DNA of 15,485 nt from a virus (lineage: Duplodnaviria; Heunggongvirae; Uroviricota; Caudoviricetes): IMG/VR virus record IMGVR_UViG_2563366804_000003; one strand, 5' to 3'. The position numbers were made by a program. Below are positions 1 to 3,000 of the stretch, in pieces; the first letter of the stretch is position 1; the number at the start of each line of letters is the position of its first letter.

Positions 1-3000
1 ATGCCAAAACTCACAGATATGCAGATCCGCGCATGGATAAAGGCGGGAGACAGATTTGATGGCAAGGCAGACGGCAACGGCCTTTATATTTGCTACCCCA
101 AAAACTACACAGTCCCGTTCTGGCGATTCCGCTATAAGCTCGCAGGAAAGCAGCGGGCTATGGTTATAGGCTCTTACTCCGAACTGTCACTATCAAAAGC
201 CAGAGAAACAGCAAAAGAGCTGTCAGCCAGAGTTGCTCTTGGCTATGACGTAGCAGCAGAGAAACAGGAACGAAAAGCTGAAGCACTGGCAAAAATGGAG
301 GCTGAGAAAAACGCCATGCGTGTTTCAGATCTGGCCTCCGAATACTTCGAGCGCCAGATACTTCCGAGATGGAAACATCCCGATATCCTTCGCCGGAGAA
401 TTGATAAGGATATTAACCCCTGCATTGGGCATATGAAGGTAGAGGACGTTAAGCCACGCCACATTGACGACATGTTGAAAGGTATCGTTGACCGAGGAGC
501 ACCAACGATAGCAACAGATGTATTACGCTGGACACGCCGTATCTTTGACTATGGGATAAAACGCCACGCTCTGGAGATAAACCCTTGTTCAGCGTTTGAA
601 GTATCTGATGCTGGTGGTAAAGAGGTTTCCCGCGACCGTTGGCTAACTCGCGATGAGCTTATCAGGCTATTCGAGGCTATGCGCACCGCAAAAGGATTCA
701 GCCGCCAGAACGAACTGACATTTAAGCTATTGCTGGCACTATGCGTTCGTAAGATGGAGTTATGCGCCGCACGATGGGAAGAGTTTGATTTAGATGGTGC
801 GGTATGGCATTTGCCGGAAGAACGCAGCAAAAACGGAGACCCTATTGATATACCTCTACCTTCCCCAGCCGTTGAATGGTTGAGAGAGCTACACACCTTT
901 TCATGTAATAGCGCATGGGTGCTTCCGGCCAGGAAGATGCAAAACAGAATGATCCCACATATTCAGGAAAGCACTTTACCCGTAGCACTGGCTAAGGTTC
1001 GCGCCGAAATGCCGGATGTGCCTAATTTCACGATTCACGACTTCCGACGCACCGCACGTACTCATTTAGCAGCGTTGGGTGTTGATCCTGTTGTGGCGGA
1101 ACGATGCCTCAATCATCGCATTAAGGGCGTAGAGGGGATTTATAACCGCCATCAGTATTTTGATGAGCGTAAAGCAGCACTGGCACAGTGGGCTGATCTG
1201 CTGGTGGCACTGGAAAGCGGAAAAGACTACAACGTAACGCCTCTCAGAAGGGCGAACTAACTGAATAGATTGAGCCTAGCTCGACGGGGCGAAAAGCGGG
1301 AAGCCTTACCGCCTGGCTCAATCACAAAATAAGGCGCAGCGTAAAAGGTGACGCAATGAACGACTCTCATGAAACAACTGCGGTGCATAGAAATTTATGG
1401 CAGGAATCAGGTATTCCACCTTTGGACTACTGCACGATAGAGCGAGCATCAAAATTATTAAATTGTGAAATTGATGATATATGGCATTGGAAAGATAGAC
1501 TACATATAGACTTTTATGTCTATGCTGACTTTCTTGATTTCATTGAAGCTGATGCCGCCATCCACTTCAAAAAAGATGCTGATTTTATAACTGATTTATT
1601 ACTTATGTACCCAGAAGAAGTAAGGTTTACATTTCCTTTTCTTATTACCAGCGCAAGCAACGAAGTTTATATCCCAGCATCTGAAAGCGGTGCTTATGAG
1701 CTATTTTATGCACATAAACCACTGACAGTTGAAGACAGAGACAATAAAAATGTTTTTGAACAAATTGGCAAAAACTCTTTTATTGTAAGAAAATCAATTG
1801 CATGCGGATTGTTGCGTGTACGCGGTAGTACAACACGACATTATCATTCACAAGAATGTGGAGAGCCATATGTGCGACTTGAAGCAACATTTGATTGTGA
1901 TCTATATAAATTCAAAATGCAAAGTTCCCAGATTCACCTGAGTAGCCTGTCAGATAAAAACATTTATATAACAAAGGCTGATTTAGAATATCTTCACGAC
2001 GCAAAGGTTAATGGAAGTTTTGACGCAGCTAAGAGCAAAAAACGATACGAAATGGCGGTAGAACAGGAACTAATACCTGAAATAAAAAATAGCAACCATA
2101 ATGCCGAGAGACATGCTGAAAACAGGGAAAAACTTTTCAAATCAGCAATATATCTTTTGTCAAAGTATCCTGATGAATGCCGTGGCAAAAAGAAAGAAAT
2201 AAGCCCTGAGAAGTGGCGGGATTGCATAGTGGCTCATAAAGACGAAATTCCACCGTTAGCAATCACAAATGAAGATGTGATTTTGAGACACTTACGTGCT
2301 GCCGCCAACGGTAAGGGGTAGAGTAGCTAACTATTCAGGCACAGTATCATTACTGTGCCTTTTTATTGTTCATATATGTACAGATACTTCCTCCCGTAAC
2401 GAAGCAACAACTATCGCTAAGAGGTTACGGGAAGCATGAACACCGACACTATTCCTACAAAAGGCTATATCAGACGCTTCCGCCTGGCTGAATTGCTGGG
2501 CGTTAGTGTATCCACCATCGACCGTAAAGTAAGAAACGGTTCACTACCACGTCCGGTAAAGCTGGGAGAAAAAATAACTGCGTTTGATGCGGTTGAGATT
2601 CACAACTGGCTGGCAGAACGCCGCGGGAAGGTGGCCTGATGGAAAAGAAAAACCGCCCATTACAGGCGGCTAATTCAGATATTCGCGTATCTGATGTTAC
2701 GCCCCTTACAAAATCCCTTCAAGAACCAAAGCGCACACCGAAAAAGCATCGTGCCAGAGTCTATATGCTGCGTACTGGTATAGAGGGATGGACAGAAAAT
2801 GACATTCTTCGCTACTGCCGTCTGTCTTCTGGTCGTAACTATGCAACAGAGTTAGAACGCCAGCTTGGAATCACTCTGGAGCGTATCGACGAAAAGAATC
2901 CTGATGGTATCGGAACACACCTTCGCTACCGTTTCTCCTGCCGTGGTGATGTTCTGAAAGTGATCACTCATGTTAACCATCTTGCGAACATAAATGATCA

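What the first reader, a model, noticed from the sequence alone, without database searches (positions are those of the whole stretch)
1356..2367. AT-rich orphan gene with its own terminator inserted between int and alpA
In CP4-type elements the slot between the integrase and alpA is occupied by a variable gene (in E. coli K-12 CP4-57 it is yfjH, 318 aa, as recalled). Here a 321-aa protein of clearly lower GC than its neighbours sits in that slot as a stand-alone unit ending in a strong terminator. Integrase-proximal variable slots in satellites are recurrent sites for single-gene anti-phage systems. The translation has no motif I can assign, so its function is open.
Basis: inference. Interest (0 to 1): 0.55.

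Follow-up and report, generated by a model that had tools for sequence, protein, structure and literature searches.

The report
Hypervariable satellite gene between integrase and alpA
The AT-rich gene is real but not an orphan: it is one allele of a large uncharacterised family of probably DNA-binding proteins that sits, as a swappable cassette, between the integrase and alpA of phage satellites in enteric bacteria, and its function is still untested.

Summary
An ATG ORF at 1356-2321 encodes 321 aa at 37.5% GC (flanks about 49%) and is followed by a hairpin plus T-run at 2337-2367. It lies between an integrase (1-1260) and alpA (2436-2639).

The gene is not an orphan. A profile search finds 600 clusters at 50% identity, with no Pfam, NCBIfam, PHROG or credible PADLOC match. 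Every full-length member I examined (about 17 loci, at least 4 attachment sites, integrases down to 27% identity) lies int-X-alpA on one strand.

The island is an EcCIMP1-like PICI. EcCIMP1 is a functional relative that lacks this gene.

In 5,426 E. coli genomes, islands with this integrase carry at least six alternative cassettes with sharp borders (about 1360 and 2392). Three are divergent alleles of this family and three are unrelated. None is a known defence gene.

The predicted fold has three parts: a MerR/AlpA/Xis-like winged helix, a hypervariable beta-rich middle, and a highly conserved small helical C-terminus. No enzymatic fold was recognised.

The known Rfam int-alpA RNA motif lies at 1269-1335.

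Best reading (0.4): a DNA-binding recognition/regulator protein expressed with int. Anti-phage defence (0.3) is unsupported but not excluded.

The parts
1..1260 (+). Tyrosine integrase of the island. In E. coli this type integrates next to yicC.
   Evidence: Pfam Arm-DNA-bind_3, Phage_int_M and Phage_integrase. Identical gene next to yicC in strain cq9. Present in 335 of 5,426 E. coli genomes.
1269..1335 (+). Rfam RF02996 'int-alpA RNA' motif: an outer stem enclosing two small hairpins, directly after the integrase stop and before the ORF. It is part of the conserved backbone, not of the cassette.
   Evidence: cmscan 60.6 bits against a gathering score of 35.8, E 1e-11, full-length match. Same motif at the same place in L002, L004, L006, L008, L012, L014, L015 and L017. 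The MFE fold agrees, z -2.7.
1356..2321 (+). ORF 'X', 321 aa, 37.5% GC: the gene of the finding.
   Evidence: Identical to WP_001555743.1 'hypothetical protein'. Family of 600 clusters.
1413..1625 (+). Codons about 20-90: predicted winged helix-turn-helix of MerR/AlpA/Xis type (beta-alpha-alpha-beta-beta-alpha).
1626..2090 (+). Codons about 91-245: beta-rich central region, hypervariable between alleles.
   Evidence: Column identity is 0.2-0.5 here, against 0.8-0.96 in the C-terminus. This region cannot be aligned at DNA level between alleles that share 99% identical flanks. No convincing fold match.
2091..2318 (+). Codons 246-321: highly conserved small helical C-terminal domain (AERHAxNREKLFKSAIYLLSKYPDECRG..KEISPEKWRDC...).
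1741..1786 (.). 18-nt inverted repeat (89% complementary, 10-nt spacer) inside the variable part of the ORF, overlapped by the only two promoter-like matches of the region.
   Evidence: Significance not established.
2337..2367 (+). Terminator-like hairpin plus T-run that closes the int-X unit and insulates alpA.
   Evidence: Comparable hairpins follow the family's genes in L005, L008, L010, L016, L021 and L023, often with a shorter T-run.
1361..2392 (.). The exchangeable cassette: the ORF from its start codon to just past the terminator.
   Evidence: blastn break points against islands with 80-99% identical flanks (99% for L002). The left break is at 1359/1360 (L002, L004, L006) or 1241-1248 (L003, L005). 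The right break is at 2392/2393 (L002, L004), 2449 (L003, L006), or 2121 inside the conserved C-terminus (L005).
2392..2432 (+). Conserved hairpin or inverted repeat (CCCGTAAC ... GTTACGGG) in the alpA leader, ending 4 nt before the alpA ATG.
   Evidence: Predicted in all 12 related loci that were folded. L016 and L018 have different, compensating arm sequences. Absent upstream of EcCIMP1 and CP4-57 alpA.
2436..2639 (+). alpA, the AlpA-family regulator and first gene of the downstream operon.
   Evidence: Pfam Phage_AlpA, E 2e-8.

Best explanation
The ORF encodes a non-enzymatic protein in three parts. The N-terminus is a MerR/AlpA/Xis-type winged helix. The middle is a beta-rich domain that changes quickly between alleles. 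The C-terminus is a small, strongly conserved helical domain.

The gene is one allele of a large uncharacterised family. That family forms the exchangeable middle member of an int-X-alpA module in alpA-primase phage satellites (EcCIMP1-like PICIs) of Enterobacterales.

I think it most likely acts as a DNA-binding recognition/regulator protein. It would be made together with the integrase while the island is dormant. The winged helix would place it on DNA, most plausibly in the int-alpA control region. The variable domain would recognise a partner specific to a phage or mobile element. The conserved C-terminal domain would contact an invariant partner. The protein would thereby tune which phage can switch the island's alpA operon on. 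The terminator keeps int-X transcription from leaking into alpA.

Shown here: the gene, the family, the strict synteny, the cassette borders, a fold-level (weak) match of the N-terminus to a winged helix, the absence of any recognised defence or enzyme domain, and dispensability for mobilisation in the relative EcCIMP1. Inferred: DNA binding, co-transcription with int, the sensing role, and the target.
For: Fold: the N-terminal wHTH is the only part with consistent structural matches (MerR family, GlnR/TnrA, Xis). The C-terminus is a small helical, winged-helix-like bundle. No catalytic fold or motif was found.

Synteny: every full-length member examined lies directly after an integrase and directly before an AlpA gene on the same strand. 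Attachment sites are yicC, mipA, der and a tRNA. Integrases go down to 27% identity. The primase is either the DUF927 or the D5 type.

Distribution: the family has no tblastn match in 50,697 phage genomes. Its plasmid matches are small circular satellite-like records or chromosome pieces filed as plasmids.

Uniformity of the slot: the alternative occupants are all single genes of 216-321 aa. DUF6387, one of the alternatives, also lies directly upstream of alpA in unrelated islands.

Diversification pattern: conserved ends and a hypervariable middle, exchanged by recombination between islands with 99% identical flanks. Within an allele there is purifying selection, dN/dS 0.25.

Cis elements: two other cassettes carry tandem direct repeats 20-21 bp apart between the slot gene and alpA. 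These look like operator-type sites.

Coupling to int: related islands have gaps of only 10-21 bp between int and the gene, and no upstream promoter-like site was found here.
Against: EcCIMP1 has the same backbone (98% identical from 2629 onward). It excises, circularises and is transduced although it has only 427 bp and no homologue between int and alpA. The protein is therefore not required for the satellite cycle, at least with that int/alpA pair.

Gram-negative PICIs are described as lacking a repressor, with AlpA induced by the helper (PMC11773190). Related islands also carry isrK and C4 antisense RNAs, which points to RNA-based immunity.

No operator was identified in this allele's cassette. 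The window's own island has a 3.4-kb deletion in its replication region, so this copy may be inactive as a satellite.
Confidence: 0.4

Rival explanations
1. One reading: a stand-alone, single-gene anti-phage or superinfection-exclusion system. It would be carried as cargo in an integrase-proximal hotspot and expressed from the dormant satellite. The variable domain would sense a phage component, and the helix-turn-helix modules would block phage DNA or transcription.
For: The unit is AT-rich and moron-like, with a terminator. Cassettes are swapped between nearly identical islands. Satellites are known to carry defence genes near the integrase, and PICIs carry accessory genes between int and the regulator (PMC9122126; PMC10085698). 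EcCIMP1-like islands confer phage immunity that PADLOC and DefenseFinder do not explain (PMC11773190). 'Conserved module plus hypervariable sensor' is a common design in defence proteins (own knowledge).
Against: No PADLOC model matches beyond a chance-level hit in 1 of 62 members. None of the six cassette types is a known defence gene. The slot lacks the spread of sizes and multi-gene systems seen in the P2/P4 hotspots. No effector, enzymatic or membrane domain was found. The family is confined to this one position and is not scattered over defence islands, prophages or plasmids. The EcCIMP1 immunity phenotype occurs in an island that lacks this gene.
Confidence: 0.3
2. A recombination directionality factor or integrase cofactor: an Xis-like winged helix co-expressed with int that controls integration and excision.
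For: The N-terminus has an Xis/MerR-type wHTH fold. The gene is tightly coupled downstream of int.
Against: Islands with 99% identical integrase and flanks carry very different alleles or unrelated proteins in the slot. A factor that must fit one integrase and one att site would not vary like this. alpA, the usual RDF/regulator, is present. EcCIMP1 needs alpA and int but has no X.
Confidence: 0.07
3. A host-directed transcription factor carried as cargo, comparable to the island's PerC-like regulator. It would act on chromosomal genes rather than on phages or on the island itself.
For: Helix-turn-helix-like modules with no enzyme domain. The same island family carries a PerC-family regulator that represses LEE in Citrobacter rodentium.
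Against: The strict position upstream of alpA across island lineages, together with the hypervariable middle, is hard to explain by a host-gene target. There is no evidence for any host target.
Confidence: 0.1

Closest known systems
EcCIMP1, a phage-inducible chromosomal island of E. coli MP1 (Pick, Stadel & Raivio, ISME J 2025, PMC11773190)
   Same: The window's island shares its backbone at 95-99% DNA identity over the aligned blocks from 2629 onward. The shared genes are the PM1773-like gene, the AntA antirepressor, the ash fragment, the Toprim/DUF927 primase and the P22-type DUF2824/gp7/gp20 ejection genes. More divergent stretches (78-85%) lie near PerC.
   Different: EcCIMP1 has a different integrase (tRNA-Thr site) and an alpA only 33% identical. 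Its int-alpA gap is 427 bp, holds only a small ORF (EcCIMP1_002), and has no homologue of this protein. The slot gene itself has not been studied.
Stl master repressors of staphylococcal pathogenicity islands (own knowledge)
   Same: An island gene next to the integrase, with an N-terminal helix-turn-helix. It is extremely divergent between otherwise related islands, and the variable part determines which helper-phage protein is recognised.
   Different: No sequence similarity. X is co-directional with int and alpA rather than divergently transcribed. A functional relative lacks it. Repression and inducer binding are untested.
Defence hotspots of P2 phages and P4 satellites (Rousset et al. 2022, PMC9122126)
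   Same: A variable, AT-rich segment between conserved flanks, close to the integrase of a satellite.
   Different: Those hotspots hold many known and multi-gene systems of very different sizes. This slot holds one gene of about 220-320 aa, and none of the six types is a known defence gene.
MerR / HTH_17 (AlpA, Xis, TorI) winged-helix proteins
   Same: Predicted fold and sequence pattern of residues about 20-90.
   Different: No HMM match in 62 family members. X has a further 230 residues that these proteins lack.
YfjH of CP4-57 and DUF6387 proteins
   Same: Same position: between int and alpA, or directly upstream of alpA.
   Different: No detectable homology to X. yfjH is on the opposite strand.
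Rfam RF02996 int-alpA RNA
   Same: A full-length match lies directly upstream of the ORF, at 1269-1335.
   Different: It is an RNA motif of unknown function belonging to the backbone, not part of the cassette. Rfam files it as an sRNA.

Membership tests
Gram-negative alpA-type PICI / EcCIMP1-like satellite (the island) | Integrase followed by an AlpA-family regulator on the same strand | tested here: met
   Pfam hits at 1-1260 and 2436-2639.
Gram-negative alpA-type PICI / EcCIMP1-like satellite (the island) | Primase/replicase module downstream | tested here: inconclusive
   A Toprim_3 + DUF927 ORF lies at 4085-6502. Compared with strain cq9 it is a deletion fusion that lacks the Zn-ribbon N-terminus.
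Gram-negative alpA-type PICI / EcCIMP1-like satellite (the island) | Backbone homology to the experimentally verified EcCIMP1 | tested here: met
   98-99% DNA identity over window 2629-8557.
Gram-negative alpA-type PICI / EcCIMP1-like satellite (the island) | Helper-phage-dependent excision and transfer | not testable with these tools
   Shown for EcCIMP1 only.
Known anti-phage defence systems (PADLOC-DB v2) | Significant match to a defence protein model | tested here: not met
   Only PDC-S31 at E 0.002 and 15.5 bits, seen in 1 of 62 family members. The other slot proteins give nothing.
P4/P2-type defence hotspot | Different gene content between conserved flanks in close relatives | tested here: met
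   Six cassette types with sharp borders.
P4/P2-type defence hotspot | Known defence systems among the alternative occupants | tested here: not met
   0 of 6 cassette types match PADLOC.
MerR/HTH_17 (AlpA/Xis) winged-helix superfamily (N-terminal domain) | Profile HMM match | tested here: not met
   No Pfam hit for the protein or for 62 relatives at E 0.01. hhalign against AlpA gives score 23 with a noisy null distribution.
MerR/HTH_17 (AlpA/Xis) winged-helix superfamily (N-terminal domain) | beta-alpha-alpha-beta-beta-alpha winged-helix fold | tested here: inconclusive
SaPI Stl-type master repressor | Helix-turn-helix repressor adjacent to int, divergently transcribed from the island's lytic operon | tested here: not met
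   X is co-directional with int and alpA and is separated from alpA by a terminator.
SaPI Stl-type master repressor | Required to keep the island silent; relieved by binding a helper-phage protein | not testable with these tools
   Indirect evidence against a requirement: EcCIMP1 lacks the gene and is still regulated by its helper.
Rfam RF02996 int-alpA RNA (upstream element) | Covariance-model score above the gathering threshold | tested here: met
   60.6 bits against 35.8, covering model positions 1-71.
YfjH (CP4-57) / DUF6387 | Sequence homology | tested here: not met
   BLASTP E 0.43. hhalign scores are at the shuffled-sequence level. No DUF6387 Pfam hit for X.

The most novel reading that the evidence does not exclude
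Enterobacterial alpA-type satellites do have a protein counterpart of the staphylococcal Stl sensor. The int-X-alpA cassette would encode a winged-helix regulator plus its own cis sites. Its hypervariable domain would bind a specific helper-phage protein, so that swapping the cassette re-targets the island to a different helper. This would explain helper specificity in Gram-negative PICIs, which are currently thought to lack a repressor.
Probability: 0.2. Interest if true: 0.8.

Novelty: new variant of a known kind. Interest (0 to 1): 0.5.

Why it matters
It is not known how Gram-negative PICIs recognise their helper phages, or what the genes between int and alpA do. This work defines an unannotated family of at least 600 sequence clusters tied to that exact position. 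It maps the cassette borders, counts the alleles in E. coli, and places a known orphan RNA motif (int-alpA) directly upstream of the gene. Together these give a concrete and cheap experimental handle: swap or delete one cassette in an EcCIMP1-like island. If the protein is a sensor-regulator, it would be the missing specificity determinant. If it is a defence protein, it would be a new non-enzymatic type. If it is neither, the slot is still a clear example of modular exchange in satellites.

Tried and rejected
- Pfam, NCBIfam, PHROGs, PADLOC and PDB sequence searches of the protein gave nothing usable. Pfam and PADLOC scans of 62 diverse relatives also gave nothing.
- The PDC-S31 PADLOC hit was rejected as chance: it appears in 1 of 62 members.
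- Foldseek against viral structures gave nothing.
- The AlphaFold-database library was unavailable, so the most useful structure comparison could not be run.
- The C-terminal profile against PDB gave only XPF HhH at E 1.1, rejected as not significant.
- Protein comparison with alignments failed. hhalign run by hand has a score offset of about 135 with single-sequence queries. After calibration with shuffles, L003-type, DUF6387 and YfjH are at the null level and L006-type is marginal.
- EcCIMP1_002 was tested as a possible remnant of the conserved C-terminus. There is no similarity.
- An RNAalifold run on the alpA leader failed because MAFFT misaligned the two covarying sequences. Single-sequence folds were used instead.
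- A LexA-box reading of the terminator arms was rejected on spacing.
With the close alignment it gave only 5 loci.
- Accession-number searches of the literature found no paper on these proteins.
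Full report
**1. The observation**

The window has an ATG ORF at 1356-2321 (+) of 321 codons. Its GC content is 0.375. The 300-nt composition windows inside it read 0.33-0.38, against 0.48-0.52 in the neighbouring genes.

A 10-bp hairpin with a 4-nt loop lies at 2337-2360 and is followed by TTTTTATT.

The upstream gene (1-1260) is a tyrosine integrase with an Arm-DNA-binding domain. The downstream gene (2436-2639) is an AlpA-family regulator.

The gene is identical to WP_001555743.1, annotated 'hypothetical protein', in E. coli cq9. There the island lies next to yicC.

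**2. The gene is not an orphan**

A word-indexed search found 48 clusters, all from Enterobacterales: Escherichia, Salmonella, Enterobacter, Cedecea, Klebsiella, Pectobacterium, Pantoea, Serratia and others.

A profile search against 1.84 billion representatives found 600 clusters at E <= 1e-3 and 163 at E <= 1e-10. Nearly all are 270-350 aa long.

None of 62 diverse members has a Pfam hit. The protein itself has no NCBIfam or PHROG hit, and no match to PDB sequences.

**3. Architecture**

Alignments show three parts:
- a moderately conserved N-terminal motif, PPxxYCxIxRAAxLLxCxxxDLLHWAxxGxI;
- a middle of about 150-180 residues that can hardly be aligned between alleles;
- a C-terminal block of about 75 residues with 80-96% column identity.

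The AlphaFold2 model has pLDDT 75.9. It gives a beta-alpha-alpha-beta-beta-alpha winged helix at residues about 20-90, a beta-rich middle, and a helical C-terminus.

No catalytic fold appears anywhere. The winged-helix assignment is at fold level only and is modest. Profile support is lacking.

**4. Context**

The island is an EcCIMP1-like PICI. From position 2629 onward, most of the window aligns with EcCIMP1 of E. coli MP1, in blocks of 78-99% identity. Two long blocks, 2629-4439 and 4436-8557, are 98-99% identical. EcCIMP1 is a satellite shown to be induced and transduced by the P22-like phage Kapi1 (PMC11773190).

EcCIMP1 has another integrase and an alpA only 33% identical. Just 427 bp separate them, with no homologue of this protein. 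The protein is therefore not needed for that satellite's cycle.

Every full-length family member I could place lies directly after an integrase and directly before an AlpA gene on the same strand. The sites are:
- next to yicC in E. coli, Salmonella, Pantoea and Pluralibacter;
- next to mipA in Leclercia;
- next to der in Salmonella and Klebsiella;
- next to a tRNA in a Pantoea MAG, with an integrase only 27% identical.

The primase is either the DUF927 or the D5 type. A 21.8-kb circular Klebsiella 'plasmid' with X followed by alpA looks like an excised satellite.

The protein has no tblastn match in 50,697 phage genomes.

The one exception found is a 273-aa Klebsiella chromosomal relative beside tRNA-Arg. 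It has no int or alpA nearby and has a different C-terminus.

**5. The slot is a cassette**

Islands whose integrase and alpA are 80-99% identical to the window's lose similarity at sharp points:
- on the left, at 1241-1248 (the end of int) or at 1359/1360 (the start codon of X);
- on the right, at 2392/2393 (just past the terminator), at 2449, or at 2121 inside the conserved C-terminus in one allele.

In 5,426 complete E. coli genomes the integrase type occurs in 335. The cassette counts are:

| Cassette | Genomes | Family |
|---|---|---|
| Window allele | 77 | X |
| L005 allele | 41 | X |
| L002 allele | 38 | X |
| 216-aa type (L003) | 112 | unrelated |
| 293-aa type (L006) | 24 | unrelated or marginal |
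| DUF6387 (L004) | 4 | unrelated |

HMM and shuffle-calibrated hhalign tests confirm L002 and L005 as family members. L003-type and DUF6387 score at the null level, and L006-type is marginal.

All cassettes are AT-rich (0.36-0.42 GC). None matches PADLOC.

DUF6387 genes also lie directly upstream of alpA in ICEKp258.2 and in a Serratia island.

Within the window allele, comparison with a 97.6%-identical island gives dN/dS 0.25. Diversification therefore proceeds by segment exchange rather than by visible positive selection.

**6. Neighbouring non-coding elements**

The Rfam family RF02996 ('int-alpA RNA') matches 1269-1335 in full: 60.6 bits against a gathering score of 35.8. It occurs at the same place in eight related loci. 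It belongs to the conserved backbone to the left of the cassette.

Between the terminator and alpA lies a conserved hairpin (2392-2432) that ends 4 nt before the alpA ATG. Two distant loci have different but complementary arms.

The L002 cassette carries two 19-nt direct repeats 21 bp apart just after the stop codon. The L003 cassette carries tandem 20-bp repeats and repeats spaced 21 bp apart upstream of alpA. These could be protein-binding sites that travel with the cassette.

No promoter-like site lies upstream of X. In related islands X starts 10-21 bp after the integrase stop codon. Co-transcription with int is therefore the simplest reading, but this is an inference.

**7. Interpretation**

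Four things are established:
- the gene is real and under purifying selection;
- it belongs to a large family specific to satellites;
- it is positionally fixed but swapped between islands as a cassette;
- it has no recognisable effector domain, and its only assignable fold is a winged helix.

The function is inferred. I favour a DNA-binding recognition/regulator protein of the int-alpA control module (0.4). The reasons are:
- the family occurs only in this position;
- the alternative occupants are uniform single genes of similar size;
- one alternative family (DUF6387) is linked to alpA in other island types;
- some cassettes carry repeat elements in front of alpA;
- the 'conserved ends, variable middle' design resembles specificity proteins such as Stl.

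Against this reading:
- EcCIMP1 functions without the gene;
- Gram-negative PICIs are not thought to use a repressor;
- isrK and C4 antisense RNAs in related islands suggest RNA-based immunity.

It has no positive evidence. It fits poorly with the uniformity of the slot and with the confinement of the family to this position.

An RDF role is unlikely, because islands with 99% identical integrases carry unrelated occupants.

**8. Novelty**

The island type, the slot as a place for accessory genes (PMC10085698) and the RNA motif are known. The protein family, its strict int-X-alpA synteny, its domain design and its allele structure are not described in the literature I could search.

I rate it a new variant of a known kind and of moderate interest, because a simple experiment would decide between a new type of satellite regulator and a new non-enzymatic defence protein.

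Noticed in passing
window 1269-1335: Full-length match to Rfam RF02996 'int-alpA RNA', an RNA motif of unknown function. It sits immediately upstream of the slot gene and recurs at the same place in 8 related loci. It is absent where the cassette break point lies at the end of int.
   Followed up: partly
window 2392-2432; also L002-L023 upstream of alpA: Conserved hairpin or inverted repeat (CCCGTAAC...GTTACGGG) ending 4-9 nt before the alpA start codon, 4 nt in the window. L016 and L018 have compensating arm sequences. It is absent upstream of EcCIMP1 and CP4-57 alpA. It could control alpA translation or be a protein-binding site.
   Followed up: partly
window about 4436-4439 (ORF 4085-6502): Relative to strain cq9, the window's island lacks 3.4 kb (L001 19180-22544). 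The deletion fuses the start of the ash gene to a primase without its Zn-ribbon end, and it removes the region that holds the isrK/C4 RNAs in related islands. This copy is probably replication-defective.
   Followed up: partly
window 7265-11923: The satellite carries P22-type DNA-ejection genes: DUF2824 (7265-7726), gp7-like (7720-8397), gp20-like (8397-9818) and a 701-aa gp16/transglycosylase-like gene (9818-11923). EcCIMP1 has the same set. A satellite supplying its own ejection proteins is unusual.
   Followed up: no
window 3083-3916: The C-terminal half (aa 166-266) of the AntA-family antirepressor matches the PADLOC candidate defence model PDC-S22 (E 4e-11).
   Followed up: no
window 1741-1786: An 18-nt inverted repeat (89% complementary, 10-nt spacer) lies inside the variable part of the ORF. 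It coincides with the only two sigma-70-like matches of the region (1722-1751 and 1765-1794). It could be an internal promoter or binding site, or chance in AT-rich DNA.
   Followed up: no
L002 3695-3734; L003 3560-3599 and 3772-3807: Other cassettes in the same slot carry tandem direct repeats 20-21 bp apart between the slot gene and alpA. They resemble operator or iteron arrays.
   Followed up: no
L004, L010, L012, L019 (ash region); also L002, L003, L005, L006: Related islands carry Rfam isrK and C4 antisense RNA (plus c4-a1b1 targets in L004) within the ash/icd region. This suggests P1/P4-type antisense-RNA immunity.
   Followed up: no
L025 (CP031371.2, 21.8 kb circular) and similar Klebsiella records of about 20 kb: Records deposited as small non-mobilizable plasmids have X-alpA-antirepressor-DUF4222 gene order. 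They are probably excised, circular satellites.
   Followed up: partly
L026 4986-5807 (K. pneumoniae): A 273-aa relative of the family (N-terminal and middle parts only, different C-terminus) sits alone beside tRNA-Arg(CCT), among what look like ordinary chromosomal genes, without int or alpA. It may be a remnant or a domesticated copy.
   Followed up: partly
window 2629: The alpA/PM1773-like gene boundary is a recombination junction. Downstream the window is 98% identical to EcCIMP1. Upstream (int, slot, alpA) it is unrelated or only distantly related. The int-X-alpA block therefore moves as a module.
   Followed up: partly
L001 10882-11841: In strain cq9 a 'reverse transcriptase family protein' gene lies between slmA and pyrE, about 3 kb from the island. 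It may be a retron-type element.
   Followed up: no
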